From NCBI GenBank assembly GCA_038884755.1, contig JAWABJ010000001.1, forward strand, positions 493,947 to 557,946: a stretch of DNA of 64,000 bases, written 5' to 3'. Below the pieces are notes generated by a model. It worked only from the letters and a program-made list of their open reading frames with translations, was not told where the DNA came from and searched no databases. The position numbers were made by a program, and so were the translations under genes. The DNA comes from Candidatus Norongarragalinales archaeon. GTDB lineage: Archaea; Micrarchaeota; Micrarchaeia; Norongarragalinales; Norongarragalinaceae. Shown here piece after piece: positions 1,559-44,093 of this stretch (the stretch's first letter is position 1; the number at the start of each line of letters is the position of its first letter).

Positions 1559-4500
1559 TTAAGACTGGGATGCTGTGAACGTGGTGGTGGAGGTTTTCGC
1601 GCCTGCCGGCTCGTCTGAGGGAATGCGCCAGTTTATCGCTATTTTGGCGGAATCCGCCGAATCGGAATAGCCTAGCTTGCACAAGGCGTAGGGAACGCCG
1701 CTCTGGCCTGTTTCGTTTACGTTATACCATGAATTGTAGTTGTTGAAGGGCGCCGGGCAGGCTGACGCGAGGCTTCCCGGTTCGTAGTCAGACGCGTTAA
1801 ACCGATACCAAGTGTCGGGCATGGGAGTGGTGTTGCGGGAAAACGGTGCGGAGCCCGTAATGGTGATGTTCATTTGCACGTTCCCGTCGTTCTGCAGGAT
1901 GAAATACCGGTACCCCAAGCCGCTGGCGTTGTCAGAGTAGTAATCGTTACCCACACTCACGTCGGAAAAGTTGACGGTGTGGTTCAAAAGAGAAAGGTCC
2001 AACACTGCGACTACGTTTAGGCACAAGGCTTGCGTGGTGTTGGTGCTCAAATAAACGGTTTGCGTGTCGTTCACGTACCCGCTGGCGTTGGCGTAAAACT
2101 TGTGGGGAGTGTAGTTTACAGTCACTTCCAAATCGCCTCCAGCATCATAGTATTCTGCGAACGAAGAGACGTTCCTGAAGCCCGTAAGCCCATCTGAACC
2201 GCTGAGCGTGCTGTCGAGGTAGTTCGCCTGCGTGCTGTAGAAGGAAACGTTGGCTCCGTTGAATGCCGTGCTGTTCTCGCAATAGGTCACGTTGCCTCGG
2301 GCGTAATAGGCGACAGTGTAGTTTGCCGTAACGAGTGAGGTGCGCGAGGGACTCACGTTCGCGCTAAGGAAATAATTGTCGAGCGAGTTTGTCAACAACA
2401 AGTGGGGATTCGTTCCAGTCAAAGCCAACAGCAATTCTACGAAAGTGAGGTTGTTCGAGTCGGTTGCTTTGATTGCGGTCGAGGCGTTGGTTATGGTGGT
2501 GTTGAAGAACGTGTTGTTGTGCGCATTCGAAGAAAACGTTATGGCGTTGGATACCGAACTTAAGGTATTGACTATAAACCGGCTGGTGTTCAAGCCACTC
2601 AAGGTGATGCCGTAGCTCATGTTTTCCAAAGTGGTGGTCGTGCCGTTGAAAGAACCTTGTGCAGGCTGGTTGTAAGTGAAGTTCAACCCGCTTATTCCGC
2701 CCCTGGCGAAAGTTGAGGACATGGTTCCCGTGGAATTCACTAGGTAAGCTGCAGTGGTGAAGTTCATCATGCTGCACTCGACGATGGAAAGCGAATTTCT
2801 GCCTATTGCTCGCAGTCCTATTCCGCTGTTGCCCGAACCGTCTATCACGTAGTAAAAGTTGCTTTTGGAGGGCGCGCAGTCGAGAGTGGCACTCCCGCCT
2901 ATGAAGTCGTAGCATGCAGTTCTTCCCGACGAAGAATCGAAAGTCACGTTCTGGCTCATGGTAAAGCTTTCACCCGCGTGAATGTCTCTGCACGAGCGGG
3001 AAACGTTGTTTATGCCCGTGAAGTTGAAGGCGAAGTCGAAGTTAGTGGCGTTTGGGTAAACGCTGTTAGTGTTTTCAAACAACGTTACCGGGCTCCACGT
3101 GTCTCTGGAAGAGTTGTAGTGCTGGCCGCAAATCGGCTCGTTCGAGTGGTTTGTGTTGTAGATGAGCATCGTGTCGTTGGAAAACGCGTCGGGAACAAGT
3201 CGCACGAGCATAGAATCGGTTTGCTCGCTGCCGCTGTTTCCAGTTCCGCAAATGTCGGAAGTAGTGTTTCTTGCGGAAGTCCAAGTGCCGGCAAAGCAGT
3301 TGCTTGCGGTCGTACAACGCCGTTCCAACGGCGAGTTTTGATACCTTCCCGCGTAAACAACCATTGCCCCGCCGCTTCCTCCCAAGTAAGCGACGTCGGC
3401 AGTCTTCCGGTCTTGAAAAGTCACGGCAGGAGCGCCGTTGGAAACCAACGTCGTTTGCGTGCCCCACGCCGAACCGTTCCATTCTATAGCGTCTAACTGA
3501 TGCGAAGAAGTTCTGTAGCTTATCGCAGCCATCACCCTGTTCGAAGCAGGTCTGCTCGTGCAATCCAGCCAGTTGATTCCCACAAGCGAACCCGATCCCA
3601 CGCTAGTTGCCGAAGACCAAGTGTCGTTGTTGACGTAGTGAATCCGAAAAGTGAGCACCCCGGCGAGAGTTTCGAACAAAACCAGCGCATTGCCTGTTTG
3701 CTGTTCGTAAGCGGTGCACATGGTCTTGCGCGTCACGGCGTTTGTTATAGCAGTATGCGTCACGGGAGTTCCGAATTGCGAGCCGTTCCAAAAGTAAGTG
3801 CAAACGTCGTTGGCGCTGTCTTGGTATGTCACTACAATCTCGTCTGACAGCGGCTTTGCCCGCGCTTCAACCCAAAGGGGAATGCCGGCGCAAGAGTCGT
3901 TCACCTGGAATTTTTCAGTCCCGCTCCAAGTGTTGTTTTCGGGATACCAAATTCGGTAGTAAGGCGTGTCGGTGTTGTTTGCCGTTATTACGAGCCCCCA
4001 GCCGCGTATTTTTTCAAACGCAATGTCGAAACCGCGGTAGTTGTCGTTCGTGGTTCCGATATTCGCTACCACCCTCTGGTCCGAACCCCACGTGTAATTG
4101 CGCCAAAGTTGAGCGTGAACCACGCCCGTATCGTCTAAAAATCCGCCAATGCAAGCATTTTCCAAAGGATTGCACTCCACGCGCGTCCATTCTATATCCT
4201 CGCCTAATCCAAAGAAAGAAGTTCCCGAACCTTCAGCAGACCAACCCGCAGTCCAATTACGGTATTTCGGACCATTGTTAAAAAATTGATAGTATGCTAC
4301 AATCCCGATGGAACTGTTGGAATAAAGAAGCATTTCAAAATCGCTACTGCTGTTCGCGGTATTGCCGTCGTGCGCGGTGTAATTCAAGCGGAAAGTGCCG
4401 GCGAGGAGGTTCGAGGAAATGTTGTAGTTCCAAACTCCGTTTTTGTTCGAGCCGTTGTACAAGCTCATGGTGTAGTTCGTAATGCTCCCATTCACGTGAT

Positions 4501-7021
4501 CAAAAGTAAGGTTGACTTCGCTTGTGCCATTGTCGTCGGAAAAATTCGCAAAGAAAACTATGGTATCCTGGCTGTACGCACTTGCGTTCGTGATGTTGAA
4601 AGACTGCCATTTGAATGCAGGCTCTTGGCTTGAGACCGTGAAAGAGTAAAGCCCGGTGTTGTTGACGTTCCCGGAATCGTCTATCGCCCAGGCTTTAGCG
4701 GTATAAGTTCCTGCGCTCAAGCCCGTAAAGTTGTTGTAGTACTGGTACGACTCGGCGTTGTAGGAAGCGTTTATTTCCTGCGCCGTAAGCGTACGGTTGT
4801 AGATTTGAATGCTGTCGAGAGTGCCGTTGAAGTAGCCCGTGCTTCCCGCAAGCTTGCCTATTTCGAAAGCGTCCGAACCTGACGGGAGTGAGCCGAAATT
4901 CAAGGTAGTGGTATAACTTCTGTTGACGCCGTTTATGTAAAGGTTGTAAGTGCCGTTGTCGAAGAACAAGAGGGCGAAGTGGAACCAAGTGTCGCCTTTC
5001 ACGGGAATGTTTGAGGCGGAAAAGTTGAATTCCGTCCCGTCTTTCATCATGTACATTTGCAGGAATCCTGGCGCGGTGTTGCTCAGCAAAAGCATGTACT
5101 TGTTCGTGGAGTTTTGAAAACGAGACAGGACTCTGTTTCCGCCTCCTTTAATCCAACCAACCCAAGTCATGTTGCTGGTAAGGTTGAACCTTCCAGGGTT
5201 GTTCACGGAAAGATAGTCGTTCACTCCGTCGAACGCTAGTCCCAACCCGCGGGTGCTTGCAGTGAGGTTGGAAGTTCCAAAGTCGGCGCCAGTAAACGTG
5301 GCGTTGTTGCCGTAAGACGAGTTGTCGAAAACTACGGTGGAATTGTAAAAGTCCATTTCCCACCACCCGACGAGGGCGTTGTTCCAGTCAAGGAAAGCAG
5401 AGTGGTTGTTGGAATCTCGGCTTGAAACGTTGGTGTAAATGTAAGTGTCCGTGGAAGAAGAGCCGTTGGAAGGCGTGGGGGAGACGAACGACACGAGCGG
5501 GGGTTTCGAGTCGTTGTAGAAAGTCGCTTCGAAAGGTCTCGCGTTGGAAAGAAAACGGTTGGAGTCTTCAAGCGTCGTAACGGCATGCCAATACCCCATA
5601 GTTGCGTTGTACAGTTGGTAGCATATCGGCTCGTTAGCATGCTGCGTGCTGTAAATAAGCATCGTGTCGTTATTCGCGGTGTTGGAAATAAGCCGTACTA
5701 GGTCAACGTTTCCGGCTGTCCCGCAAGCCGTTGCAGTCGTGGCTGAAGCGCTTCCCCAAGTTCCTGCCTGGCAGTTGGAAAGCGAAGTGCACGTGCGGTA
5801 GTTGGGAAAGTTCGTTCCATCCGGAGAATAGACTACCATCGCGTGCCCGCTTCCGCCTAAGTACGCGACGTCTGCCAATTGCCTGTCTGCAAAATCGCCT
5901 TCGACGGCGCCGGTGAAAGTTGCCGGAGTTCCAAACCCTTGGTTCCACTCGCGAACAGCCAAGTCTGCCGCAACATATCGCAAGCGCGGGGTTTTTATTT
6001 TAGAGGTTATTTTGCTCACGAAATCCGACCATCGTCTTACGGCTTCGGAAATGGAAGCGAAAGACAAAACCTCATTGCCGGCCGTATCACCGCCGCCCAT
6101 TCCCGAAGTTTGCACGGGTGAAGCCCACATTATGCGGTTGGTTCCAGGCATTGAAGCGCAGGAAAACCAAACGTAATTGGAGCCTGCCACACATGAGGGG
6201 TTGCAAAGCAAGGAACCCACTTCCCAAGCGCTTCCCGTCCAATTTGCGTGGTTCAGCTGGGCGCTCTTGGCTTCCTCCCAAAACACTACGCCCCTTCCGC
6301 TGGATTGTTCGTAAGCAACACAAAAAGTCTTTTGGGTGCTGTTGAATGTCGTGTTGTAAATGCTTTTGCTGTTTCCCCACGCGCTTCCATTCCAAACGTA
6401 GGCGCAAAACCTCCCGCCGCTGTCCATGTACGCCATGAGAATTTCTTTCGAATTTGGCTTGCTTGCGGCTTCAACCCAAGCGGGAGTGTTGCTCGTCCCG
6501 CAAGCGCTGTTTGGAAACTGTTCCACCCCGCTCCAGGTGTTGTTTTCGGGATACCAAATTCGGTAGTACGGGCGAGCGGTGTTATTTCCAGCAATGACCA
6601 AGCCCCAACCTCGAGAGTATTCGAACGCAACGTCAAAGCCGCGCGATTCGTCGTTCGTAGTCCCGATGTTTGGGGCAACGTCTACAACCGAACCCCAAAC
6701 TCCGTCAACCCTCGCTTGCGCTTGCACTTCCCCCTCGTCGTCAAGCGTAGCCATGATGCAGTTAGTCTGGTTGCGGTCGCACTTCAACGCCATCCATTCT
6801 ATGTCGCTTCCGGTGTCGAGCGTCGTCGCGCTTAATTCAGATTGGGCAGTGTAATTGAAGTACGACGGGGCGATTCTGTAGCGGGGTATCACCTGCGCGT
6901 TTTCGTAGTAACCGAACATCGTGTGCGGGAGCACGGGAGAGGCGGAAAAGGCGAACGGAGCGAGCGAAACAAAAGCCAGCATAGCGAATAAAACTACAAA
7001 CCGGCTTTTCCACCTCTGCAA
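1559..7021 (-). CDS. Giant secreted surface protein (1820 aa), N-x-S/T sequon-rich; two copies of a ~430-aa Cys-containing module plus a LamG/ConA-like lectin domain
   Basis: TTG start with Sec-type signal peptide (MQRWKSRFVVLFAMLAFVSLAPFAFSA); very high Asn/Thr/Ser content with many N-x-S/T sequons; module copies at about aa 60-503 and 925-1370 (IMATLDDEGEVQAQA, RGFDVAFE, RGWGLVIAGNN, PYYRIWYPENNTW, CNPSCVAG, CASMPGTNRIMWAS); LamG-like stretch at about aa 575-750 (GLAFDGVNDYLSV...WFHFALLFFDNGTYNLYINGV...FNGTLDSIQIYNRTLTAQEI). Confidence 0.85.
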   Translation of the reverse strand: MQRWKSRFVVLFAMLAFVSLAPFAFSASPVLPHTMFGYYENAQVIPRYRIAPSYFNYTAQSELSATTLDTGSDIEWMALKCDRNQTNCIMATLDDEGEVQAQARVDGVWGSVVDVAPNIGTTNDESRGFDVAFEYSRGWGLVIAGNNTARPYYRIWYPENNTWSGVEQFPNSACGTSNTPAWVEAASKPNSKEILMAYMDSGGRFCAYVWNGSAWGNSKSIYNTTFNSTQKTFCVAYEQSSGRGVVFWEEAKSAQLNHANWTGSAWEVGSLLCNPSCVAGSNYVWFSCASMPGTNRIMWASPVQTSGMGGGDTAGNEVLSFASISEAVRRWSDFVSKITSKIKTPRLRYVAADLAVREWNQGFGTPATFTGAVEGDFADRQLADVAYLGGSGHAMVVYSPDGTNFPNYRTCTSLSNCQAGTWGSASATTATACGTAGNVDLVRLISNTANNDTMLIYSTQHANEPICYQLYNATMGYWHAVTTLEDSNRFLSNARPFEATFYNDSKPPLVSFVSPTPSNGSSSTDTYIYTNVSSRDSNNHSAFLDWNNALVGWWEMDFYNSTVVFDNSSYGNNATFTGADFGTSNLTASTRGLGLAFDGVNDYLSVNNPGRFNLTSNMTWVGWIKGGGNRVLSRFQNSTNKYMLLLSNTAPGFLQMYMMKDGTEFNFSASNIPVKGDTWFHFALLFFDNGTYNLYINGVNRSYTTTLNFGSLPSGSDAFEIGKLAGSTGYFNGTLDSIQIYNRTLTAQEINASYNAESYQYYNNFTGLSAGTYTAKAWAIDDSGNVNNTGLYSFTVSSQEPAFKWQSFNITNASAYSQDTIVFFANFSDDNGTSEVNLTFDHVNGSITNYTMSLYNGSNKNGVWNYNISSNLLAGTFRLNYTAHDGNTANSSSDFEMLLYSNSSIGIVAYYQFFNNGPKYRNWTAGWSAEGSGTSFFGLGEDIEWTRVECNPLENACIGGFLDDTGVVHAQLWRNYTWGSDQRVVANIGTTNDNYRGFDIAFEKIRGWGLVITANNTDTPYYRIWYPENNTWSGTEKFQVNDSCAGIPLWVEARAKPLSDEIVVTYQDSANDVCTYFWNGSQFGTPVTHTAITNAVTRKTMCTAYEQQTGNALVLFETLAGVLTFRIHYVNNDTWSSATSVGSGSLVGINWLDCTSRPASNRVMAAISYRTSSHQLDAIEWNGSAWGTQTTLVSNGAPAVTFQDRKTADVAYLGGSGGAMVVYAGRYQNSPLERRCTTASNCFAGTWTSARNTTSDICGTGNSGSEQTDSMLVRLVPDAFSNDTMLIYNTNHSNEPICGQHYNSSRDTWSPVTLFENTNSVYPNATNFDFAFNFTGINNVSRSCRDIHAGESFTMSQNVTFDSSSGRTACYDFIGGSATLDCAPSKSNFYYVIDGSGNSGIGLRAIGRNSLSIVECSMMNFTTAAYLVNSTGTMSSTFARGGISGLNFTYNQPAQGSFNGTTTTLENMSYGITLSGLNTSRFIVNTLSSVSNAITFSSNAHNNTFFNTTITNASTAIKATDSNNLTFVELLLALTGTNPHLLLTNSLDNYFLSANVSPSRTSLVTANYTVAYYARGNVTYCENSTAFNGANVSFYSTQANYLDSTLSGSDGLTGFRNVSSFAEYYDAGGDLEVTVNYTPHKFYANASGYVNDTQTVYLSTNTTQALCLNVVAVLDLSLLNHTVNFSDVSVGNDYYSDNASGLGYRYFILQNDGNVQMNITITGSAPFSRNTTPMPDTWYRFNASDYEPGSLASACPAPFNNYNSWYNVNETGQSGVPYALCKLGYSDSADSAKIAINWRIPSDEPAGAKTSTTTFTASQS

Positions 7022-7029
7022 GCAACTGC

Positions 7030-7059
7030 ACCCTTGTCAAGAATAAAAGATTCAAGGGT
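7030..7059. promoter_or_regulatory. Inverted repeat ACCCTTG...CAAGGGT bracketing an A/T-rich TATA-like core immediately upstream of the giant surface-protein gene
   Basis: 7-bp perfect arms (7030-7036 / 7053-7059) flank TCAAGAATAAAAGATT; located in the 50-bp spacer between the HTH regulator stop (7072) and the TTG start at 7021. Candidate operator/promoter. Confidence 0.3.
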
Positions 7060-7071
7060 TTTATTGCTTTT

Positions 7072-7773
7072 CTAGGCGGCGGTGAATTCCTTCAGCGCTT
7101 TTTTTATCTCTTCTTGCGACAGTTTCGTGACGAGCATGGGAATTCCCTCGCTCTCCGCGATTTTGATTGCAAGCTTGTCCACCCTGTCCGCCGGAAGCTC
7201 GTGCAAAACCACCAGCGCGGGTTTTATGGGTGCGACTCGAACAGCAACCATGGGGCTCCTGCCTGTGGTCGTTCCCGTGAACAGCAACGCCCTCTGCGAG
7301 GTGGTTGAGTAAATTTTTACGAAACTCTCGTAAGGCAATTCCAGGATTACTTTAATCGAGTCGATTATTGTGCAGCCGAACAACTGCGTCTTGTCAAGGC
7401 TTTCCTCGCACGCGACGCAAGCCGCTTTTATCGCTTTGGCGAAGTCCTCGCCGGTAATCGCGGTCTTGAAGTCTATGGAGTCGAAAAACTTCTGTTCGGG
7501 CTCTGCTTCCTTCAAGCGTTTTACGAACTCGCCTCCCTTTTGCACGTCGATTTCGAACAACGCGTCCACGAAACGCTTTATCACGCTTATGCCCGGGCTT
7601 TTGCGCCTGTTGCTTTCGTAATCGCTTATGGTTGAAGGGGAAATTTTCAGGAACGCGCTGAGCTCGCTTTGGCTCACGCCGAAAACCTCGCGCCATTTTT
7701 TCATGGCTCCGCCTGGGTCTTGAGACAAGGCGATTTCCCCGGCTATTTTCACTTTCAACTGTTCAGTAGCCAT
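7072..7773 (-). CDS. Archaeal HTH-domain transcriptional regulator (XRE-like HTH with C-terminal domain, COG1395-like)
   Basis: 233 aa; N-terminal HTH-like segment (FGVSQSELSAFLKISPSTISDYESNRRKSPGISVIKRF); sits directly upstream of, and co-oriented with, the giant surface-protein gene. Confidence 0.65.
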   Translation of the reverse strand: MATEQLKVKIAGEIALSQDPGGAMKKWREVFGVSQSELSAFLKISPSTISDYESNRRKSPGISVIKRFVDALFEIDVQKGGEFVKRLKEAEPEQKFFDSIDFKTAITGEDFAKAIKAACVACEESLDKTQLFGCTIIDSIKVILELPYESFVKIYSTTSQRALLFTGTTTGRSPMVAVRVAPIKPALVVLHELPADRVDKLAIKIAESEGIPMLVTKLSQEEIKKALKEFTAA

Positions 7774-10845: not shown

Positions 10846-12087
10846 CTAGGAATAGGTTTCCTCCTGGCTTTGCTTGTAACGCCAGAAGAGGTACCCGCCG
10901 GCTATCACCACGAAGAAAACTATCCAAGGCAGGTAGTTCGACTGGCCGCCGGCAGGTTCGGAAAGGATTTCCTGCTGCGGGCGCGTGCAAGATTCGTATT
11001 TGCGCTTGAGCTCGTCGTACTGTATTTTGAGGGCGTCGAGCATTGCGGGCAGCTTTTCGAACGCCTTGGCGCTGCCCCCCGCCATGAGCGTCTGCACGTC
11101 GCTCCACCTGCTTTTTATCGAATCCGCCTCTTCCGACAGGCCGCACAAATCCAAGTTCGATTCGGAAAGGAAAACGGTTTCGATTTCCGGCTCGAGCAAA
11201 TCGTACTTCGCCCGGACGTCGACCGTGATTTTCTTGTAGTTGAACGACGCTATGGAATCGTTCACCCACTTGTCGCGCGAGGCTTCCAGTTTTTCAATGC
11301 TCTCGTTCGGCTTCAGGAAGCGCAGTTGCTCGAACAAGTCCACCTTCAACCGCATGTTCTCCAAATTCTTAACTATGTTCTCGTTGTCCGGCGCGGGAAT
11401 GTTCGACTTGAATATTTCCGCCTGTTTCTTGGAAATCTCTTCGTTGTAAGCGTCGTACGCCGCGATGAATTCCGCGGATTTCGAAAACGCGCTTTTGTAG
11501 TAGTCCAGCAGTCCGGAAAGCGCGAAGTCGCTCAAGTCGCTGTCCACCTGCTGTTCCAGGCTCGTGCCGTCGCTCACCATGCCGTCCAGCTCCAGGGCAA
11601 AACGCTGGAGTTCGGAAGACTTAGCGTCTATTGCGTCGAAGTTAGTGTTCGGATAGGACTGCTGGGTTTTGGAAGCCAAAGCCGCAAGGGAATTCGCGTT
11701 GCGGTCTATCGCCAAAAGCGTCTGCCTCACGGTGGTTTCCATGTCGGAAAAGGAAATCTTGTTGCGGCCCACGTACTCGTCGATTATGCCGTAGTTGTAA
11801 ACGCTCTTTCCGACCGCGTCAAGCCTCGACAAGTCAGTTTCCACTTCCCCCGCCTCTTCGGAAACCGCAATGAAGATTTTTTTTGCGGAGTAGATTGAAG
11901 GCGCGAAAACGTAGTAGTATTCGGAAAGGACGAAGAACGGGCGGGGCAAGAGTCCCACTCCAGAGTCCAAGTACGGCTTCGCCTTCACCGCCGCCTCTTC
12001 CGAAGAAATGCCGGAAACAGGCGTGAAAAGGGAAAGCAAAACGAGAAGCAAAGCGATTGCTTTTCCGAACTCGCGCATGCTTTGCAT
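10846..12087 (-). CDS. Secreted or membrane-anchored protein of unknown function (signal peptide, acidic coiled region, C-terminal TM anchor)
   Basis: 413 aa; N-terminal signal peptide (AIALLLVLLSLFTPVSG), C-terminal hydrophobic helix (WIVFFVVIAGGYLFW); no recognised catalytic motif. Confidence 0.55.
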   Translation of the reverse strand: MQSMREFGKAIALLLVLLSLFTPVSGISSEEAAVKAKPYLDSGVGLLPRPFFVLSEYYYVFAPSIYSAKKIFIAVSEEAGEVETDLSRLDAVGKSVYNYGIIDEYVGRNKISFSDMETTVRQTLLAIDRNANSLAALASKTQQSYPNTNFDAIDAKSSELQRFALELDGMVSDGTSLEQQVDSDLSDFALSGLLDYYKSAFSKSAEFIAAYDAYNEEISKKQAEIFKSNIPAPDNENIVKNLENMRLKVDLFEQLRFLKPNESIEKLEASRDKWVNDSIASFNYKKITVDVRAKYDLLEPEIETVFLSESNLDLCGLSEEADSIKSRWSDVQTLMAGGSAKAFEKLPAMLDALKIQYDELKRKYESCTRPQQEILSEPAGGQSNYLPWIVFFVVIAGGYLFWRYKQSQEETYS

Positions 12088-12128
12088 TAACCCTTCACAT
12101 GATTTAAAACCATCGCGCGGCTATAATC

Positions 12129-12806
12129 ATGGTTATGCAATTGCGGGTGGTTTTGGTCGAACCCAAGTGGGACGTGAACGTGGGAAGCATATGCCGGGCG
12201 ATGAAAAACTTCGGCGCCAGCGAGCTTTACCTTGTCAAGCCAAAGGCAGAGCTCGGAGTGGAGGCAATAAAATTCGCGAAACACGCGAGGGAAATACTGG
12301 AAAAAGCCACGAAAGTCAAAACGATGCGCCAAGCGTTTGAAGGTTGCACGCTTGTAGTCGGAACGACTGGAATACTCAGGCGTTTCAGAAAGAAAATGCT
12401 GAAAAAATGCGTTTCGGCTCGAGAGGTGAAAAAGTTTTTCGGAAAAAACGATAAGGTAGCACTGGTTTTCGGGAACGAAGAGCACGGACTTAGCGACAAG
12501 TTTTTGGGCGAATGCGACGTCGTAGCGTTCATCCCTTCCAACCCGCGCTATCCCGTGCTCAACCTTTCGCACGCGGTCGCAGTAATGCTTTACGAGCTTT
12601 ACGCTGCGAAGGGGGAAAAGCAGTTGAAGGAAATTCCGGCTGCGCCGCGCCACAAGCTCGAAAGGCTCGAAAAGCTTTTTTTCGAATTCGCTTTGCGCAA
12701 CAAAACCATTCGCGACCCGAAGAAAGTGGCGACGGCGTTCAAGCGAGTTCTCCGCAGGGCGAGGCCTTCCGAAAAAGAAATCCAAGCGCTTTTCCCGGCG
12801 TTTTGA
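12129..12806 (+). CDS. SPOUT-class RNA 2'-O-methyltransferase (TrmJ/TrmH-like)
   Basis: 225 aa; SpoU-type layout (VVLVEPKWDVNVGSICRAMKNFG ... ALVFGNEEHGLS ... NLSHAVAVMLYE). Confidence 0.7.
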   Translation: MVMQLRVVLVEPKWDVNVGSICRAMKNFGASELYLVKPKAELGVEAIKFAKHAREILEKATKVKTMRQAFEGCTLVVGTTGILRRFRKKMLKKCVSAREVKKFFGKNDKVALVFGNEEHGLSDKFLGECDVVAFIPSNPRYPVLNLSHAVAVMLYELYAAKGEKQLKEIPAAPRHKLERLEKLFFEFALRNKTIRDPKKVATAFKRVLRRARPSEKEIQALFPAF

Positions 12807-12807
12807 C

Positions 12808-13890
12808 TCACTTGCAGTTTTCAATCCTGCAATAGTCGAACAAGTATCTCTTGCTTCGCGACCCTTCCCAGATTATTTCGAAAGTCTTTTGCGTCTGGCT
12901 GCTGCCGGTGGGCGCAAGCAAGCCCACGAAAGAACTGTTTTGCGCTACAGTCGAGCCAGCCGCGTCGTTGATTTTCACCAAAGCGATTATCGAAGGAATG
13001 TCTTCCTTGCCTGGGTTGGAGAAAAAGCACTGGCCTTCCACGCGCAGTTTTCCCTTCTCGTTTACCGAAGGGCGGATAGTCTTCGCGCCGAAAAGCCCGA
13101 ACCACTCGGGCGGGTTGTAATAACGGTCGAAGAGCGAGCACGAAACGCTCCCTTGCGTCGAAGTACGGAAGAAAACGAAGTACGCCAGCGCCAGCACGAC
13201 GAGCGCCAAAAGCAGGTAGCGCACCCAAGGAGTTTGCAGGGCTTGCGGGCCTGAACCGCCTTTTCCAGCCGCGGCTCCAGAAACCGCGCCCACTGTTTTT
13301 CCTAAAAGTTCCGCCCAGCCAGAAGGCGTCTTCATCTTTTGCACCGTCTCGCCCGCAGCTTCGCCCAATCCCTTGGCCCGCTGCGGAATGGCTTCGGCTC
13401 CCTGCGGATTGCCCAGCACGGCGTCGATGTCTATCTTGAAGGAATCGTTGGCAACGTCGACCCAAACTTGGTATGAAGGAATGTAGTATTTCGTAGCAGC
13501 GGATATTGAAACCATTTCCCGCTTCAGTCCCGCGTGGGCGGCGACTTTGGTCGCGGCGACTTCGTTCAACTCGCTTTTAGAAATTGCGGTTGGCAGGACT
13601 TCAACCTCGGCGCCCGGCTCGGTCTGAGTCGCTTTTTTTGTCGGGCGTTCGAGCAAATAAGGAATGTAGTCGTTCAATTCCCCCGTGTAGGCGTTCAACG
13701 CAGTTTTGCCTGTCGGCGACGCTTCGCCGGCTAGCACGTCGAAGCTGAAAACCCAGTAAGGGGTGTAGACGAGTTTTACGTCGGAAATGTCGAATTGCTT
13801 CCAGCCGCGCTGGGCGACCGCTTTCTGCACCATTCCCAACGCCGCTTCGGGCGTGAGCACGGTTTTGAAAGACTGCGCGTCGAGAATCAT
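12808..13890 (-). CDS. Membrane protein of unknown function (cytoplasmic N-domain, one TM helix, extracytoplasmic C-domain)
   Basis: 360 aa; central hydrophobic helix (WVRYLLLALVVLALAYFVFF); no recognisable family. Confidence 0.5.
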   Translation of the reverse strand: MILDAQSFKTVLTPEAALGMVQKAVAQRGWKQFDISDVKLVYTPYWVFSFDVLAGEASPTGKTALNAYTGELNDYIPYLLERPTKKATQTEPGAEVEVLPTAISKSELNEVAATKVAAHAGLKREMVSISAATKYYIPSYQVWVDVANDSFKIDIDAVLGNPQGAEAIPQRAKGLGEAAGETVQKMKTPSGWAELLGKTVGAVSGAAAGKGGSGPQALQTPWVRYLLLALVVLALAYFVFFRTSTQGSVSCSLFDRYYNPPEWFGLFGAKTIRPSVNEKGKLRVEGQCFFSNPGKEDIPSIIALVKINDAAGSTVAQNSSFVGLLAPTGSSQTQKTFEIIWEGSRSKRYLFDYCRIENCK

Positions 13891-15721: not shown

Positions 15722-15823
15722 CAATCAGGGCGTCGGGTGCACGCGCTCTACTTTTTGGAAAGTAATTAAACCCGCGAGAGCGTTGTGTATTATTGCATCA
15801 CAAGAAACAAAAAGTGGAAAAAA

Positions 15824-24594: not shown

Positions 24595-24656
24595 TTCACA
24601 CCACACAAGCTGAAAACTAAGGCTTTGATTAAAACATATTATGGAAAAGCGGGGTT

Positions 24657-25385: not shown

Positions 25386-25500
25386 TGGAAATGCAAAGTT
25401 TAGAAAGCGGAGCGGAAAGAAAAGCTTTTTGCATCGGAAAAAGGTCGTTCAAAGGAAAAAAATAAATTCCCCTTTTCTCTGCGTTATTCGCGGGATTGGC

Positions 25501-25698: not shown

Positions 25699-25778
25699 GT
25701 TTCCACCGCTTTCTTTTCAACAGCTTTTTAAAAGCAGAGTGAGTTGTCTTACTATCAAGAGTGAGAGGCTAGAGTAAA

Positions 25779-27047: not shown

Positions 27048-27100
27048 GCGAGCTGGCAAAGCAAAACCGTATTTAAGGCGCGGAAGCTATTTTTCAAATC

Positions 27101-27517: not shown

Positions 27518-27542
27518 AAAAAACAAACGAAGCAAAGGGGAT

Positions 27543-35287: not shown

Positions 35288-35346
35288 AAACCCGATTCGC
35301 TTGTTTACCCACAAGCACTTTTAAACAACCGGGCAGTAGGGATAGT

Positions 35347-37044: not shown

Positions 37045-37063
37045 AAGCAACGCCATTTTTAAA

Positions 37064-39293: not shown

Positions 39294-42200
39294 ATGAAGA
39301 AAACGCTTCTTTTAGCAATCGCTTTTTTCCTTCTAGCCCAAAACGCTTATGCGGTCATAAACGAGTACAACGCCGATTACGCCAACAGCGGGTATTTGAA
39401 CGTCACGGGTTACAATCACACTAACGGCGTTAATTCGGCAACCAACTTTTCCGACGACATTTACTTCGGGCTCAACGACTCGAATGCGCACGTTTACGCA
39501 AACAAATCGCCTTTCTTGACGGTGTGCGGCGTTGACAACGCCGACGCGACGATACCGTTCTGCAGGATTTTCAATTACACTGGCGAAAGCGTTACAAACA
39601 GGACGGCGACGGACATAGGAAGTAGTGCGGCAGAGTGGTACGTCTTGAAAGGAAACCCGTTTACCAACGAGTTGTTCTTGTGCATAAGCGATGCTGCCGA
39701 CGATTTGAAGTGCCAGAATTTCAACGGCAGCACCTGGACTTCAACCTTCACCATGACCACGAACGACACTACGGTCGACGCGCGCAGTTTCGACATCAAC
39801 TTCGAAAGCAAGAGCGGAAGGGCGGTAATTGTTTACAGCGTGAACGTCGCAGACACTCTCGCGTACAGGTATTGGAACCAAAGCAGTTGGAGCAAGGAAT
39901 ACTGGCTCACCATGACGAGCGCGGCTACTCTATCGTGGGTAAGGCTGGTGGCAGACCCGAACTCGAACAACATGACGGTCGTAGCGCAAAACTCTAGGAC
40001 CGACGGACAGATTTTCACCGCAAGGTGGAACGGCACGTCTTCCACCTGGTCTGCCAGCCAAAACGTTACCGCAGGCACTGCAGCCGGTTCCGACTCTTCG
40101 GCAGTGGGCATACAGGCATTCGACGCGGCGTACAACAACGAAAGCGCCGCGCTCATAGTGTACAGCAACAATGCCACGGTTGGAGCGGTATTCGCGAAAA
40201 TGTTTTGGCCCAACCAAACGCTCGACGCGCAAGCGCTCGTGGGGTACGGAGGAGCAGACCAAGTGAAGTACGTTTCAGCCGCGTCAATGCCCGGCTCTTC
40301 GAGAATAGGGTATTGTTGGATTGACAACGGAGGAGGCACGACTACGGATGATTTGTTGTGCAACGAGTGGGAGTATTCCAGAAACTTCACGCAAGCAGAA
40401 CCAGACTCCACCATAGACGACGACACTTCAACCCAAGGGCGGCAGATGGACGTGGTTGCGATAGAAGAAATCGGCGGCTGGGCCGTTCCCTACGCCGACA
40501 ACGGCGTCGACATGCCTACGATAGCAAGGTGTTTGAGCAAATCCGACTGCCAAGCAGGCACTTGGGGAACCAACACTATGTTCACTGGACCTAGCCCTGC
40601 CGCAGACATGAGGCACGTCCGCGCGGACACGAGCGTCATGAACAAAAGCCAGGCTATAGTAGGATGGAAGAACATCGATACGACCGCGCCTTCGGAAACG
40701 TTCTGGGGAATGTTTTACTGTCATTCCGGCGGCTGCGCCTTGAAACACGACACTGATTCGATTCAACCGGCAACCGCTTCCGCAGCGTTGTTCGCAACTT
40801 TCGACGTCGCGAAAGACGAGTACAGCAATTACACGCTCGAAACTTGGTTCAACTCCACGCCCACCACCGACGTTCCCGCCGGCGCAACGATAGAAAGCGT
40901 GAACGCCACGGTGGAATTCAAATCGGCGTTTCCTGGCAATTTTTCCACGTACATCTACAACTGGAGCAACTCGCAGTGGAACTTCTGCCAGTCGCAAGTG
41001 GTAACTGCGAATACTGAATTGTTCTTGAACTGCAGCGTTTGCTCGAGCGGGTGCTTGGTTACCGGCGACCCGGTAAACTTTACGGACAGCGTGGGCAACG
41101 CACCCAAGGTGATACGCATTTCATTGAACGAAACCATTCACAATCTCGCCATCAATGAATCCAACGTTAGCATTGATTACGTGAATTTCAACGTTACTTA
41201 CAGCAATCCACAAGCCAACGCAGCACTGCGTCTAGCCCAATTCCGCTTGTGGGAAAGCTCTTCGACAACCATCGGCCAAGGCGCTCTCACCGATTTGAAG
41301 TGCAATACTACTAGCTCGTTCGGAGCCAACATCCTCATCACACCAGGAGGAATTTCCTGCAACAACACCGCCCCTTCGAAAAGTTATAGGGCGGAAATCC
41401 GCGTGTGCAACGACGGCGCGAGCGGCGCGAACCAAACGACTTTCGACTACATCAACCACAGGTTTCTTTCAACGCAATACTTGGGCGCTTTGACTGCAAA
41501 CGACTGCGGGCACGGAGACAACGGAAGCGCTTGGAACGGCACGCTATGCAATTCTTACAGCGAAAGCTCTTTGCTCACAGTGCAAATCGCGAACGAAAGC
41601 GCTGGAGACAAGCATTACCTCCCGAGCGGAGACGGTTCCACGCGCGACGATAATACTTGCGAGTATTACGCGTATCGCTTTACTACCGGCGCGCCCGACT
41701 GGGTTATCACAGACAACAGCAGGATTAACACCACCGGCGCGTCCAACGGCTCCAATCCCGCGCCAACAGAAAACGCGAACCTAAACGTTACGTACAGCGA
41801 AACCGCGTTCTCGTTGTACTACCCGTCGACCGGCTGCACTTCAGGAAAAGGGTCTGACGGAAGGCTTAGGGCGAGATACTACAACGAAACTTGCGTCTTG
41901 TCCGGAAGCCACGGGTGCGACGTTCAAAACGCCACGTTCCAAAACTTCAACGACACCACCACCAAAGCCAACGTTACCATAACCGCGGCAAGCACTGACA
42001 CGTTGTACTACAATTTCACGGGAATAAACGGAATGCAAGGAAACATCTATTGGACCAACAACGTTACAAACGGCGGCCAGGACACGTTTTTAGTGCATTT
42101 CTGGGATTGGGTTGACGGAAGGTGGGAGCAAGTCGACAGCAGGACTAACGTCGCCCCGACTACCAACTTGATAAACCTTTCAAGCTTGAGCACCAACTAC

Positions 42201-44093
42201 CTTTCCGGAGGGTTTCTCAACGTTTCCTTAAACGGAACTACAGAAGGGGTTGACACAACGACGTTCTTGTACGACATTTACTACCACGGCGACCACTCCG
42301 ACAAGTGCGCCCGGTGTTACTTCCAACCCGCGACCGCGAATTCGGTGAACGTAGCATGCGAAGGGCAGACTTCCTCAACTTCGTTTTTGGACTTGCAAAA
42401 CTTGGGAAGCGTAATAGAAGCCTGGAAAGTGTACTTGTCCAGCGCTCTGCCCGAGCAGACGCCCGGCGGACCTCGGGCCCTTGCGGGCTACTACCACGGC
42501 GCAAGTTCGACTGCGCCATACTTAAACCCGGCGTACAGGGTTTGGAGCAGCGCGGGCTGGGGTTCGGAAACCAACGCGACTACCCTCGACGCTGGAAGCG
42601 ACATAGAATGGCTCGTAAATAAATGCGACGTCGCCAACGCGAATTGCATCATGGCGACGCTTGACGACGAGGGGGAAGTGCAAGCGCAGGCGTATACTGC
42701 TGGAGCGTGGGGGAGCGTCGTTGACGTTGCCCCGAACATTGGAACCACGAACGACCAGTCTCGCGGCTTTGACGTGGCGTTCGAGCAAACGCGCGGGTGG
42801 GGTTTGGTCATTGCAGGAAACAACTCGGCCCGCCCGTACTACCGCATCTGGTACCCCGAAAACAATACTTGGACTGGAGTGGAGCAGTTTCCCAACAGCG
42901 CTTGCGGGGCAAGCGGAACGCCGATTTGGCTTGACGCGGTTTCCAAGCCGGGCTCGAACGAGATTCTGACAGCGTACAGGGACGATGCCGGGAGAGTGTG
43001 CGGCTACGTTTGGGACGGGAGCAGCTGGGGCAACAGCCGAAGCATAAACAACGGTTCTGCAGAAACGACGCAAAAAACGGTTTGCGCGGCTTACGAAGAG
43101 TCGAGCGGAAAGGGAATAGTGTTTTACGAAGAGCAATCGTCGGCCAACTTGAACTACGCAAACTGGACCGGAAGCGCGTGGGAAGTGCCTGCAGCAATAT
43201 GCAACCCCGCTTGCGTTGCCGGAAGCGAATTCGTTTGGTTCGCTTGCGCGTCAATGCCTGGGACCAACCGCATAATGTGGGCTTCTCAAGAGCATAGCGT
43301 CGGCGCGGAAAAGGGAGATTTGCTGAAAACCCTTTCCTACTCCTCCGGAGAGCCGGTTTCGAAAACCGTTATCGACTGGAGCGAATACGTTTCTAAAATC
43401 AACTCAAGAATGAAAACTCCGAAGTTGAGCTACGTCACCGGCACGCTGGTCGCTCGCCAGTGGGACAGGGGCTTCGGCACTGAAGCCAATTTCCCGAGCA
43501 CGATTGAAGACGATTTGAGCGACAGGCCCATGGTTGACGTTGCGTATATAGGCGGAAGCGGGCACGCAATGATGGTTTACGCTGCCGACACCAACTTCCC
43601 CAACTACAGGACTTGCACTAGTTCTGCGAATTGCCAAGCGGGCACGTGGGGAAGCGCGAGCGCAACGACGGCAAGCGCCTGCGCAACGGGCGCGCAAGTG
43701 GATTTGGTGCGGCTTTACGCTGATTCGGCGACCAACGACACCATGCTGTTGTACTCTACGCAGCACGCGAACGAGCCGATTTGCGCGCAGTTGTACAACG
43801 GAACGACCGCGACGTGGGGAAGCGTCACCAACCTTGAAGACACCAACCGTTTTCTCGCGAACGCGAGGCCTTTCGACGTTTTCTTCTACAACGCCAGCGC
43901 AAGCGGCGGGTCGCTCGCCATGTTCATGAACGACAGCAGCGCCACGCACCTGACGCTGAGCACGACGCAGCAAACTTGGAACGCAAGCGTAGAGCAGTAC
44001 GAGCATTCTTACGCGTGGCTGTGGGCGAACTACACCAGCTACGACTCTTCAACCCACGAAAACTATTTGGTGAGCAACACTTCGACGAGCTGA
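39294..44093 (+). CDS. Giant secreted surface protein (1599 aa), N-x-S/T sequon-rich, paralogue of 1559-7021; conserved module in C-terminal third plus a degenerate N-terminal copy
   Basis: Signal peptide (MKKTLLLAIAFFLLAQNAYA); C-terminal module about aa 1090-1533 near-identical in blocks to the 1820-aa protein (IMATLDDEGEVQAQA, GSVVDVAPNIGTTND, RGWGLVIAGNN, PYYRIWYPENNTW, CASMPGTNRIMWAS, NCQAGTWGSASATTA). Confidence 0.85.
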   Translation: MKKTLLLAIAFFLLAQNAYAVINEYNADYANSGYLNVTGYNHTNGVNSATNFSDDIYFGLNDSNAHVYANKSPFLTVCGVDNADATIPFCRIFNYTGESVTNRTATDIGSSAAEWYVLKGNPFTNELFLCISDAADDLKCQNFNGSTWTSTFTMTTNDTTVDARSFDINFESKSGRAVIVYSVNVADTLAYRYWNQSSWSKEYWLTMTSAATLSWVRLVADPNSNNMTVVAQNSRTDGQIFTARWNGTSSTWSASQNVTAGTAAGSDSSAVGIQAFDAAYNNESAALIVYSNNATVGAVFAKMFWPNQTLDAQALVGYGGADQVKYVSAASMPGSSRIGYCWIDNGGGTTTDDLLCNEWEYSRNFTQAEPDSTIDDDTSTQGRQMDVVAIEEIGGWAVPYADNGVDMPTIARCLSKSDCQAGTWGTNTMFTGPSPAADMRHVRADTSVMNKSQAIVGWKNIDTTAPSETFWGMFYCHSGGCALKHDTDSIQPATASAALFATFDVAKDEYSNYTLETWFNSTPTTDVPAGATIESVNATVEFKSAFPGNFSTYIYNWSNSQWNFCQSQVVTANTELFLNCSVCSSGCLVTGDPVNFTDSVGNAPKVIRISLNETIHNLAINESNVSIDYVNFNVTYSNPQANAALRLAQFRLWESSSTTIGQGALTDLKCNTTSSFGANILITPGGISCNNTAPSKSYRAEIRVCNDGASGANQTTFDYINHRFLSTQYLGALTANDCGHGDNGSAWNGTLCNSYSESSLLTVQIANESAGDKHYLPSGDGSTRDDNTCEYYAYRFTTGAPDWVITDNSRINTTGASNGSNPAPTENANLNVTYSETAFSLYYPSTGCTSGKGSDGRLRARYYNETCVLSGSHGCDVQNATFQNFNDTTTKANVTITAASTDTLYYNFTGINGMQGNIYWTNNVTNGGQDTFLVHFWDWVDGRWEQVDSRTNVAPTTNLINLSSLSTNYLSGGFLNVSLNGTTEGVDTTTFLYDIYYHGDHSDKCARCYFQPATANSVNVACEGQTSSTSFLDLQNLGSVIEAWKVYLSSALPEQTPGGPRALAGYYHGASSTAPYLNPAYRVWSSAGWGSETNATTLDAGSDIEWLVNKCDVANANCIMATLDDEGEVQAQAYTAGAWGSVVDVAPNIGTTNDQSRGFDVAFEQTRGWGLVIAGNNSARPYYRIWYPENNTWTGVEQFPNSACGASGTPIWLDAVSKPGSNEILTAYRDDAGRVCGYVWDGSSWGNSRSINNGSAETTQKTVCAAYEESSGKGIVFYEEQSSANLNYANWTGSAWEVPAAICNPACVAGSEFVWFACASMPGTNRIMWASQEHSVGAEKGDLLKTLSYSSGEPVSKTVIDWSEYVSKINSRMKTPKLSYVTGTLVARQWDRGFGTEANFPSTIEDDLSDRPMVDVAYIGGSGHAMMVYAADTNFPNYRTCTSSANCQAGTWGSASATTASACATGAQVDLVRLYADSATNDTMLLYSTQHANEPICAQLYNGTTATWGSVTNLEDTNRFLANARPFDVFFYNASASGGSLAMFMNDSSATHLTLSTTQQTWNASVEQYEHSYAWLWANYTSYDSSTHENYLVSNTSTS

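What the first reader, a model, noticed from the sequence alone, without database searches (positions are those of the whole stretch)
1559..7021. Giant glycoprotein architecture: duplicated module, LamG/ConA-like lectin domain, TTG start
The 1820-aa protein has a Sec signal peptide reached only from a TTG start. It carries two copies of the ~430-aa Cys-containing module (about aa 60-503 and 925-1370) separated by a LamG/ConA-like segment (about aa 575-750). N-x-S/T sequons are very dense throughout. A lectin-like domain plus repeats suggests a heavily N-glycosylated adhesin or S-layer-associated protein.
Basis: partly seen in the sequence, partly recalled or inferred. Interest (0 to 1): 0.5.

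Follow-up and report, generated by a model that had tools for sequence, protein, structure and literature searches.

The report
Glycosylated archaeal surface protein, lectin-like domains
This is a real 1820-residue secreted, probably heavily N-glycosylated surface protein of a tiny (Micrarchaeota) archaeon, built from two eight-bladed lectin-like propellers plus a LamG lectin domain; it is a fairly ordinary member of the large "sticky" surface proteins known from such organisms, though its propeller belongs to a big, still unnamed domain family.

Summary
All four observations hold. The ORF (window 1559-7021, minus strand) is identical to an NCBI "LamG domain-containing protein" of a Candidatus Norongarragalinales MAG.

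- **LamG:** PF13385 matches aa 598-751 (E 1.5e-18).
- **Duplication:** aa 52-501 and 918-1332 are 42% identical (E 4e-94).
- **Sequons:** 84 N-x-S/T sites against 36 expected. Sequon Asn is better conserved against the syntenic ortholog than other Asn (59/66 vs 43/78).
- **TTG start:** a TTG, a GGGTG 7-8 nt upstream and a promoter-like 16-mer align in three orthologous loci. NCBI's ATG (codon 14) has no counterpart.

New here:

- Each module is an eight-bladed beta-propeller made of four ~100-aa double-blade repeats. Its closest solved folds are PLL-type propeller lectins, with no sequence match to Pfam, NCBIfam or PDB.
- The family has about 4000 cluster representatives in DPANN, CPR, Elusimicrobiota and others. 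About 10% of those inspected carry type IV pilin-like N-termini.
- The LamG cassette (aa 506-790) is a clean indel relative to the ortholog.
- There is no membrane anchor, and the C-terminal 485 aa remain unassigned.

Best reading: a secreted, glycosylated, multivalent glycan-binding adhesin (inferred, not shown). It is a new member of a known kind, of modest interest.

The parts
1559..7021 (-). Complete CDS, 1820 aa from TTG, stop included. It is identical to the NCBI protein 'LamG domain-containing protein [Candidatus Norongarragalinales archaeon]', which is annotated 13 codons shorter.
7057..7072 (-). 16-mer GAAAAGCAATAAAACC, BRE/TATA-like promoter element. It overlaps the TAG stop of the upstream HTH gene and is invariant in three orthologous loci.
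   Evidence: Alignment A4. A similar element lies 13 nt before the eRF1 start. The promoter role is inferred.
7029..7033 (-). GGGTG, Shine-Dalgarno-like, 7 nt upstream of the TTG. GGGTG (window, L053) or GGTG (L052) lies 7-8 nt before the aligned TTG in all three loci.
   Evidence: Other window genes show GGTGA/GAGGTG at similar spacing.
7019..7021 (-). TTG start codon, aligned with an in-frame TTG in both orthologous loci.
6944..7021 (-). Sec-type signal peptide, aa 1-26: n-region MQRWKSR, h-region FVVLFAMLAFVSLAPFAF, and AFS|A by the -3/-1 rule.
   Evidence: Sequence and the hydrophobic segment 5-31. The paralog and ortholog have MKK.../...RKK... signal peptides. The cleavage site is inferred; no predictor was run.
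5507..6940 (-). Beta-propeller module 1 (aa 28-505), eight blades built from four ~100-aa double-blade repeats. It has 12 Cys and a ~45-aa low-confidence helix-containing insertion.
4652..5506 (-). 285-aa cassette (aa 506-790) absent from the syntenic ortholog: a 95-aa N-terminal segment of unassigned fold, LamG, and the start of an Ig-like domain.
   Evidence: Pairwise alignment with P0002. Similar cassettes are repeated in P0007, P0011 and P0016.
4769..5230 (-). LamG / concanavalin A-like jelly-roll domain, aa 598-751.
   Evidence: PF13385 at E 1.5e-18. NCBIfam TafC matches its LamG region only, 35 bits against a cut-off of 410.
4307..4651 (-). Ig-like beta-sandwich (aa 791-905), shared with the ortholog.
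   Evidence: Big_13 at E 1e-4, below threshold; 66% identity to P0002.
3017..4306 (-). Beta-propeller module 2 (aa 906-1335), 42% identical to module 1.
2402..3016 (-). Weakly right-handed beta-helix-like segment (aa 1336-1540). It is the least conserved part, 54% identical to the ortholog.
   Evidence: Pairwise E 1e-4 to the NosD/Beta_helix protein encoded at 38035-39291; NosD at E 0.28; AF2 model unusable.
1562..2401 (-). C-terminal region of unknown fold (aa 1541-1820). It is the best conserved part, 76-79% identical to the ortholog, and has no transmembrane anchor.
39294..44093 (+). Paralog (1599 aa, P0003) with a divergent N-terminal propeller and a C-terminal propeller 60% identical to module 1. 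Its sequon density is 3.7 per 100 aa.

Best explanation
The gene encodes a Sec-secreted, N-glycosylated, modular cell-surface protein of a Micrarchaeota (order Norongarragalinales) archaeon. It most likely acts as a multivalent carbohydrate-binding adhesin.

Translation starts at the TTG. The signal peptide is removed after export. The many conserved N-x-S/T sites are glycosylated on the outer face of the membrane.

The mature chain runs in this order:
1. An eight-bladed lectin-like propeller.
2. An unassigned ~95-aa segment, then LamG and an Ig-like domain.
3. A second eight-bladed propeller.
4. A short beta-helix-like segment.
5. A conserved C-terminal region.

The two propellers and the LamG domain would bind glycans or glycoproteins on other cells, extracellular polymer or particles. 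The well-conserved C-terminal region, which has no membrane anchor, would hold the protein non-covalently on the cell envelope.

Shown here: the domain architecture, the fold of the module, sequon enrichment and conservation, the conserved TTG start, and orthology with a cassette indel. Inferred: export, glycosylation, ligand type, and attachment through the C-terminus.
For: - LamG profile hit.
- A 100-aa double-blade unit recurs four times per module. That fits repeated binding sites better than a single active site.
- The residues invariant across 27 module copies are Trp, Tyr, Asp, Glu, Gly and Pro of the repeat motif, with no catalytic-type set.
- The family is used in extracellular contexts. 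It appears 1-12 times in proteins of up to 7926 aa. It is joined to Ig-like domains. Of 170 relatives, 17 have archaeal class III or bacterial prepilin N-termini. One Micrarchaeia relative lies among pilin-like genes next to a T2SSE ATPase.
- Sequons are 2.3 times the expected number (z = 8.9) only in this protein, its paralog and one small secreted ORF. Sequon Asn is conserved 59/66 against 43/78 for other Asn (p = 6e-6). The +2 Ser/Thr is kept in 64/65 against 164/248 (p = 3e-9).
- The only strongly hydrophobic segment is the N-terminal one. A second, at aa 1665-1683, just passes the threshold and is read as a buried strand.
- Literature: LamG-rich secreted proteins are expanded in DPANN, including the micrarchaeon Mia14, and are proposed to mediate cell contact (PMC5498576, PMC10266531). 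In Saccharibacteria, a ConA-like and a PLL-like propeller minor pilin were described; deleting the propeller one (pilX2) halved host binding, and rhamnose blocked binding (PMC11623550).
Against: - No binding, localisation or glycosylation data exist for this protein or any member of its propeller family.
- PLL lectins have seven blades and share no detectable sequence similarity with the module.
- Norongarragalinales are argued to be little dependent on hosts, or free-living (PMC12892359). The host-attachment version of the adhesin idea is therefore weak for this organism.
- About a quarter of the protein (aa 1336-1820) has no assigned fold and could carry a different activity.
- Presence of the oligosaccharyltransferase AglB in this genome was not checked.
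Confidence: 0.6

Rival explanations
1. It is a structural envelope protein: the S-layer subunit itself, or a stoichiometric S-layer-associated sheath component. Its role would be protective or architectural rather than adhesive.
For: It is large, secreted and rich in sequons, as archaeal S-layer glycoproteins are. [quoted passage not shown] 2002, cited in PMC5498576). The gene is syntenic and has its own conserved promoter-like element in related genomes.
Against: Micrarchaeota S-layer proteins are reported to be MSTP-like beta-sandwich proteins (bioRxiv 10.1101/2024.05.28.596244). No such domain was found here. There is no C-terminal membrane anchor. A 285-aa domain cassette comes and goes between orthologs, and a differently built paralog lies 32 kb away; both are unusual for a lattice-forming subunit.
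Confidence: 0.15
2. It is a secreted carbohydrate-active enzyme, a polysaccharide lyase or hydrolase. The propeller or beta-helix part would be catalytic and LamG would serve as a carbohydrate-binding module.
Against: No CAZyme, Pfam or NCBIfam family matches. The residues invariant across 27 module copies belong to the structural repeat motif, with no candidate catalytic set. The enzyme hits rank below the lectins. The beta-helix-like part is the least conserved segment.
Confidence: 0.1
3. It is a pilus- or filament-associated tip adhesin, delivered to or docked on a type IV pilus-like fibre through its C-terminal region or through the neighbouring-type pilin-like beta-helix proteins.
For: About 10% of the inspected family members are pilin-like fusions. 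One Micrarchaeia member sits in a type IV pilus operon. The paralog in the window directly follows a beta-helix protein whose N-terminus (MGLLRGQAKAFIVLL...) looks like a class III signal. The giant protein's own aa 1336-1540 weakly resembles that beta-helix protein.
Against: The protein's own N-terminus is a Sec/SPI-type signal, not [KR]G-hydrophobic class III. No pilus genes flank it; the neighbours are TruD, an HTH protein and a methyltransferase.
Confidence: 0.1

Closest known systems
LamG-rich large secreted surface proteins of DPANN archaea (Mia14 micrarchaeon, PMC5498576; nanohaloarchaea SVXNc/BNXNv, PMC10266531)
   Same: Same superphylum, and for Mia14 the same phylum. They are Sec-secreted, very large for a small genome, carry LamG/ConA-like jelly-rolls combined with beta-propeller and Ig/PKD-like modules, vary between strains, and are proposed to mediate cell-cell or glycan contact.
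   Different: The propellers in Mia14 were described as Kelch/YVTN types. Here the propeller belongs to an unnamed family with no Pfam hit. This protein has a single LamG, which the ortholog lacks. It has no VirB4-like ATPase or membrane anchor, unlike the 9000-aa SPEARE-type giants.
PLL/PHL/BP39L family of bacterial beta-propeller lectins (PDB 5c9o, 6gxr, 5mxh, 8q82)
   Different: They have seven blades and about 340-360 aa and are free soluble proteins. The module here has eight blades in about 430-480 aa, is built from four double-blade repeats, carries Cys-rich elaborations, and is embedded in a multidomain chain. Sequence identity is 9-12% in structural alignments, and the family profile finds no PDB sequence.
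Lectin-like minor pilins PilX1 (ConA-like jelly-roll) and PilX2 (PLL-like propeller) of Nanosynbacter lyticus TM7x (PMC11623550)
   Same: An ultra-small organism displays the same pair of folds, a ConA-like jelly-roll and a PLL-like propeller. Deleting pilX2 halved host binding, and free rhamnose inhibited binding.
   Different: They are bacterial, separate small pilin-type proteins on type IV pili, and the PilX2 propeller is described as seven-bladed with RCC1 repeats. Here both folds sit in one Sec-secreted archaeal polypeptide. No homology was tested.
TafC, LamG-tipped subunit of haloarchaeal Tat-fimbriae (NCBIfam NF052521; PMC11821415)
   Same: An archaeal surface protein in which a laminin-G-like domain is presented outward as a presumed adhesive tip. 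The LamG region aligns at E 6.7e-9.
   Different: The score of 35 bits is far below the family cut-off of 410. TafC is a 373-aa Tat-exported donor-strand fimbrial subunit, and only its LamG domain is shared.

Membership tests
[quoted passage not shown] | Profile match above the curated gathering score over the full domain | tested here: met
   aa 598-751 match profile positions 1-151 of 151, 67.8 bits against a cut-off of 27.6, E 1.5e-18.
[quoted passage not shown] | Actual carbohydrate or Ca2+ binding by the jelly-roll | not testable with these tools
   No close solved relative by sequence. The middle region was not modelled.
PLL-type beta-propeller lectins | Beta-propeller fold superimposable on PLL/PHL/BP39L | tested here: met
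PLL-type beta-propeller lectins | Seven blades | tested here: not met
PLL-type beta-propeller lectins | Detectable sequence homology to the family | tested here: not met
   The 27-copy profile against all PDB sequences gave nothing below E 0.96. There was no Pfam or NCBIfam hit.
PLL-type beta-propeller lectins | Sugar-binding pockets between blades | not testable with these tools
Archaeal S-layer protein (MSTP-like type reported for Micrarchaeota) | MSTP-like beta-sandwich lattice domain | tested here: not met
   No such Pfam match in any segment. The fold type for the phylum is taken from bioRxiv 10.1101/2024.05.28.596244.
Archaeal S-layer protein (MSTP-like type reported for Micrarchaeota) | Membrane anchoring segment (C-terminal TM or PGF-CTERM) | tested here: not met
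   The only strongly hydrophobic segment is the N-terminal signal. The C-terminus ...AKTSTTTFTASQS is polar.
Archaeal S-layer protein (MSTP-like type reported for Micrarchaeota) | Lattice formation and high abundance | not testable with these tools
   Needs proteomics or cryo-ET.
Archaeal N-glycoprotein | Export signal plus N-x-S/T sequons in excess of composition and selectively conserved | tested here: met
   84 sequons against 36.5 +/- 5.2 expected. Cytoplasmic ORFs have 1.5 per 100 aa or fewer. Sequon Asn is conserved 59/66 against 43/78 for other Asn, p = 6e-6.
Archaeal N-glycoprotein | Oligosaccharyltransferase AglB encoded in the genome, and glycans attached | not tested
   No STT3/AglB among the larger window ORFs (about 40 of 60) that were scanned. 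The rest of the 714-kb contig was not available. GT2 and GT4 genes are present at 23-29 kb.
Type IV pilin-like (class III signal) adhesins | N-terminal [KR]-G/A cleavage motif followed directly by a hydrophobic helix | tested here: not met
   The N-terminus MQRWKSRFVVLF...AFS|A is Sec/SPI-like. Relatives such as P0085 (MFSRGQAALEYAVIV...) do have the motif.
SPEARE-type giant proteins of nanohaloarchaea | More than 5000 aa, membrane anchored, C-terminal VirB4/TraG-like ATPase | tested here: not met
   1820 aa, with no ATPase or TM segment. Features are taken from PMC10266531.

The most novel reading that the evidence does not exclude
The duplicated module would define a large, unnamed, cross-domain family of eight-bladed lectin-like beta-propellers built from four double-blade repeats. 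This family would be a shared attachment head of ultra-small and groundwater prokaryotes (DPANN archaea, CPR bacteria, Elusimicrobiota). It would be mounted either on Sec-secreted giant proteins or on type IV pilus minor pilins, and exchanged between Archaea and Bacteria. Under this reading the protein is a natural two-head plus LamG version of it.
Probability: 0.3. Interest if true: 0.55.

Novelty: new member of a known kind. Interest (0 to 1): 0.33.

Why it matters
Cell-surface proteins are the least understood and most variable part of DPANN and CPR genomes, and they are thought to decide whom these tiny cells stick to. This case gives three usable things.

1. **A corrected gene model.** The TTG start restores a proper signal peptide, and the same correction probably applies to the orthologs.
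2. **A confident fold for an unannotated domain.** About 4000 cluster representatives at 50% identity carry it, currently labelled "hypothetical" or named after accessory domains. It is an eight-bladed, PLL-lectin-like propeller that also occurs as the globular part of pilin-like proteins.
3. **A natural experiment.** The orthologs differ only by a LamG cassette, which suits a test of what LamG adds.

If glycan binding were shown, the family would deserve a domain model. It would also help predict partners or substrates of uncultured archaea and bacteria. As a single protein, however, it fits what is already expected for this group.

Tried and rejected
- **C-terminal structure (aa 1336-1820).** Prediction from a two-sequence alignment gave pLDDT 37. 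The model is unusable, so no fold search was run on it.
- **C-terminal homolog search.** The search for homologous proteins with the C-terminal 485 aa returned nothing, not even the protein itself. The word prefilter was probably swamped by N/S/T-rich words, so this is not evidence of absence. Local phmmer finds only P0001 and P0002 for this region.
- **Profile search with A1.** The word-indexed database returned only 5 proteins. The exhaustive representative search was used instead.
- **The search for related loci.** A1 was too diverse for it. A 5-sequence alignment, A3, worked.
- **AlphaFold database fold library.** It was not available.
- **Pfam and NCBIfam for the module.** No family matched. 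Only a DUF2510-like short motif (the YRxWxGxxW hairpin) appeared in 4 of 27 copies. FG-GAP/VCBS, VWA and Big_1 labels on some hits belong to other parts of those proteins.
- **PDB sequence searches.** The module profile, the C-terminus and the LamG cassette gave nothing significant.
- **TafC membership.** Rejected at 35 bits against a cut-off of 410; only the LamG domain is shared.
- **Leaderless transcript starting at the TTG.** Considered because a T-rich TTTTATT lies 21-27 nt upstream. The conserved element is instead the 16-mer 36-51 nt upstream, which leaves room for a ~15-nt leader holding GGGTG. This stays unresolved without transcription start mapping.
- **Antisense ORFs inside the gene** (for example 2978-3496, 6248-6835, + strand). 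Treated as chance ORFs and not pursued.
- **The bacterial promoter/terminator scanner.** Not used, because the organism is an archaeon.
Full report
**What and where.** The ORF at window 1559..7021 on the minus strand is open for 1820 codons from a TTG. Its product is 100% identical to an NCBI protein named [quoted passage not shown], annotated as 1807 aa on a 714-kb contig. The order belongs to Micrarchaeia within the DPANN archaea. The rest of the window is an ordinary archaeal chromosome carrying EF-1alpha, EF-2, S7, SecY, eRF1, Cdc6, SepF and TruD.

**Checking the observation.**
- *LamG.* Pfam PF13385 (Laminin_G_3) matches aa 598-751 over the whole profile at E 1.5e-18, 67.8 bits against a cut-off of 27.6.
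- *Duplication.* A self-comparison aligns aa 52-501 with aa 918-1332 at 42% identity, E 3.7e-94. A module HMM and the ortholog alignment place the limits at about 28-505 and 906-1335.
- *Sequons.* There are 84 N-x-S/T sequons, or 4.6 per 100 aa. Shuffles of the same composition give 36.5 +/- 5.2 with a maximum of 51.
- *Specificity of the sequon excess.* Among the 60 long ORFs of the window, only three exceed their own composition-based expectation clearly. These are this protein (z 8.9), its paralog (z 7.0) and a 199-aa secreted ORF (z 2.8). Cytoplasmic proteins have 1.5 per 100 aa or fewer.

All parts of the observation are real and far beyond chance.

**The TTG start.**
- Between the upstream in-frame TGA and codon 14 the only possible start is the TTG.
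- It adds MQRWKSR in front of the hydrophobic core. NCBI's ATG model begins MLAFVSLAPFAFSA, with no charged n-region.
- I fetched two related loci. L053 encodes P0002, about 66% identical across the aligned residues, in the same gene order (methyltransferase, HTH_3, this gene, TruD), so it is a positional ortholog. L052 is a short contig with a 75%-identical N-terminal fragment.
- In an alignment of the three upstream regions, a 16-mer GAAAAGCAATAAAACC is invariant.
- GGGTG (window, L053) or GGTG (L052) lies 7-8 nt before an in-frame TTG that aligns in all three loci. In L053 this TTG is two codons upstream of the annotated GTG.
- The window's ATG at codon 14 has no counterpart in either locus.
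- Other genes in the window show GGTGA or GAGGTG at similar spacing. A similar BRE/TATA-like element precedes the eRF1 gene.

The TTG start is therefore the better model. The promoter and Shine-Dalgarno roles are inferred.

**The repeated module.** No Pfam or NCBIfam family matches it. I aligned 27 copies from this protein, its paralog and the hits (A1). From that alignment AlphaFold2 gave a confident all-beta model: mean pLDDT 82.4, pTM 0.84, about 33 strands. The only low-confidence stretches are a ~45-aa insertion and the termini.
- *Foldseek.* It ranks twenty PLL/PHL/PLL2-5 lectin structures first (E about 3e-12, TM 0.71 on the target), then fungal fucose lectins.
- *Internal repeats.* An HMM of a ~100-aa two-blade unit hits each module four times. 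In typical relatives the pattern is one partial unit, three full units and one partial unit, as expected for a closed ring with a split closing blade.

Each module is thus an eight-bladed propeller made of four double-blade repeats. The motifs are W..L.S.P..EI ... D..G.V..QVW.G..WG and RGFD.AYE..SG.A.VV ... P.YR.W.G..WS. In this protein the third and fourth repeats have diverged and gained cysteines at positions matched between the two modules. Sequence similarity to any solved structure is absent. The lectin likeness is therefore a fold-level resemblance, not family membership, and the blade number differs from PLL.

**How widespread the module is.** A profile search of 1.84 billion cluster representatives found 4017 proteins at E <= 1e-3 and 1731 at E <= 1e-30. 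Their lengths run from about 380 to 7926 aa, with up to 12 copies per protein.

A scan of one genome per species gave 51 loci. They come from:
- Woesearchaeota, Aenigmatarchaeota, Micrarchaeota and Bathyarchaeia;
- several CPR lineages (Levybacteria, Saccharibacteria, Berkelbacteria, Parcubacteria, Kerfeldbacteria);
- many Elusimicrobiota;
- Planctomycetota, Firestonebacteria and an actinobacterial MAG.

Named members are "hypothetical protein" or are named after accessory domains.

Another 7 begin with bacterial prepilin-type N-termini, one of which passes TIGR02532. One class III member from a Micrarchaeia MAG is followed by three small genes with class III-like N-termini and, further downstream, a T2SSE-family ATPase (E 3.9e-24). 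That arrangement is a type IV pilus-like operon. The propeller is therefore used again and again as an exposed globular head.

**The rest of the protein.**
- Alignment with the ortholog P0002 shows that aa 506-790 are missing from it as one clean 285-aa block. The block comprises a 95-aa N-terminal segment, LamG and the start of an Ig-like domain. The 95-aa segment gave no Pfam match, so its fold is unassigned.
- Similar segment-plus-LamG cassettes are repeated in other LamG-rich giants such as P0007, P0011 and P0016.
- aa 791-905 are Ig-like: Big_13 at E 1e-4, below threshold.
- aa 1336-1540 weakly resemble a right-handed beta-helix. The pairwise E is 1e-4 to the NosD/Beta_helix protein encoded at 38035-39291, and NosD scores E 0.28. 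This is the least conserved part, at 54% identity to the ortholog.
- aa 1541-1820 match nothing and could not be modelled (pLDDT 37). They are nevertheless the best conserved part, at 76-79%.
- Apart from the signal peptide, one segment (aa 1665-1683) just passes the hydrophobicity threshold and is read as a buried strand. The C-terminus is polar, so there is no membrane anchor or PGF-CTERM-type signal.

**Glycosylation.** Beyond the excess of sequons, 58 of the 66 sequons in the aligned region are shared with the ortholog.
- Sequon Asn is retained in 59 of 66 cases, against 43 of 78 for other Asn (Fisher p = 6e-6).
- The +2 Ser/Thr is kept as Ser/Thr in 64 of 65 cases, against 164 of 248 for other Ser/Thr (p = 3e-9).

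This indicates selection on the sites themselves and is good indirect evidence that they are used. The window holds GT2 and GT4 glycosyltransferase genes. No AglB was found among the larger window ORFs that were scanned, about 40 of 60. The rest of the genome could not be searched.

**Most likely function.** The protein is probably exported by Sec, trimmed at about AFS|A and N-glycosylated at many sites. It would then be displayed as an elongated chain with three lectin-type heads: propeller, LamG, propeller. The conserved, anchorless C-terminal region is the best candidate for non-covalent attachment to the envelope.

This agrees with published views of LamG-rich surface proteins in DPANN (PMC5498576, PMC10266531). 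It also agrees with experimental work in Saccharibacteria. There, minor pilins with a ConA-like jelly-roll and a PLL-like propeller were described; deleting the propeller one halved host binding, and rhamnose inhibited binding (PMC11623550).

Norongarragalinales are argued to be weakly host-dependent or free-living (PMC12892359). The ligand may therefore be extracellular polymer, particles or community members rather than an obligate host. I put this reading at 0.6.

**Rivals.**
- *A true S-layer or sheath role (0.15).* The fold type reported for Micrarchaeota S-layers, the missing anchor and the cassette indel disfavour it.
- *A carbohydrate-active enzyme (0.1).* No family matches, there is no catalytic-type invariant set, and lectins outrank enzymes in the fold searches.
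- *Docking on a pilus or fibre (0.1).* The family context and the paralog's pilin-like beta-helix neighbour suggest it. This protein, however, has a Sec signal and no pilus neighbours.

**Novelty and verdict.** The gene is already in GenBank with a LamG label, and large LamG/propeller surface proteins are a known feature of DPANN. It is a new member of a known kind. The added value is:
- the corrected start;
- the fold and repeat logic of an unannotated but very common propeller family;
- that family's recurrent fusion to pilin-like N-termini;
- the ortholog pair differing by a LamG cassette.

Interest is about 0.33. The most novel reading still open is a cross-domain adhesive head family shared by ultra-small archaea and bacteria. 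I give it a probability of about 0.3 and an interest of about 0.55 if true.

Noticed in passing
window 48175-48372 (-): A tRNA gene with a long variable arm and anticodon loop CUUGA, so probably tRNA-Ser(UGA). It is interrupted by a ~117-nt insertion in the anticodon loop. Rfam scores it 34.3 bits, while ARAGORN reports no tRNA anywhere in the window.
   Followed up: partly
window 33663-44850 (+): A run of predicted exported proteins. It comprises a 199-aa ORF with 5 sequons per 100 aa, a lipobox-like 301-aa ORF and a 595-aa NPCBM_assoc protein with a C-terminal TM segment. These are followed by a ParA/MinD ATPase, a 418-aa Beta_helix/NosD protein whose N-terminus MGLLRGQAKAFIVLLFAVAG looks like a class III (pilin-type) signal, and the 1599-aa two-propeller paralog starting 3 nt after it. 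The run ends with a 250-aa ORF with an N-terminal TM segment.
   Followed up: partly
window 6983-7021 (-); L053 7995-8003: Public gene models probably start too late. NCBI starts this protein at the ATG of codon 14. The ortholog P0002 is annotated from a GTG, although the conserved aligned TTG lies two codons upstream. In L052 the gene caller instead ran upstream through the promoter-like 16-mer.
   Followed up: yes
window 7057-7072 (-) and 15757-15772 (+): GAAAAGCAATAAAACC overlaps the stop codon of the upstream HTH_3 gene and is invariant in three orthologous loci. A 3-mismatch version, GGAAAGTAATTAAACC, lies 13 nt before the eRF1 start. The window holds 7 matches at up to 3 mismatches against 1.6 expected. 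It is probably a BRE/TATA-type promoter, but an operator for the syntenic HTH protein is not excluded.
   Followed up: partly
window 23254-28703: GT2 (23254-24735, -) and GT4 (27543-28703, -) glycosyltransferase genes flank a 422-aa protein (25779-27047, +). That protein has a signal peptide and a C-terminal TM segment and matches no Pfam family. It is a candidate anchored envelope protein and was not examined further.
   Followed up: no
L054 5916-13987 and L055 (Micrarchaeia MAG): A propeller-family member with a class III signal (P0085, 632 aa) is followed by three small genes with class III-like N-termini and, further downstream, a T2SSE ATPase, which looks like a type IV pilus operon. The same loci carry a Topo VI B gene with Intein_splicing and LAGLIDADG hits.
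   Followed up: partly
module copies in alignment A1 (e.g. window aa 152-156, 1021-1025): The blade hairpin motif YRxWxGxxW(S/T) gives sub-threshold matches to Pfam DUF2510 in 4 of 27 module copies (best E 3e-5). DUF2510 is a short domain of unknown function. This hints that it may be a single hairpin of the same kind.
   Followed up: no
window 10846-13890 (-): Three consecutive genes (413 aa with a signal-like N-terminus, 245 aa, 360 aa) lie downstream of SepF on the same strand and have no Pfam match. L053 also has a family-less gene of matching size (362 aa) directly after SepF.
   Followed up: no
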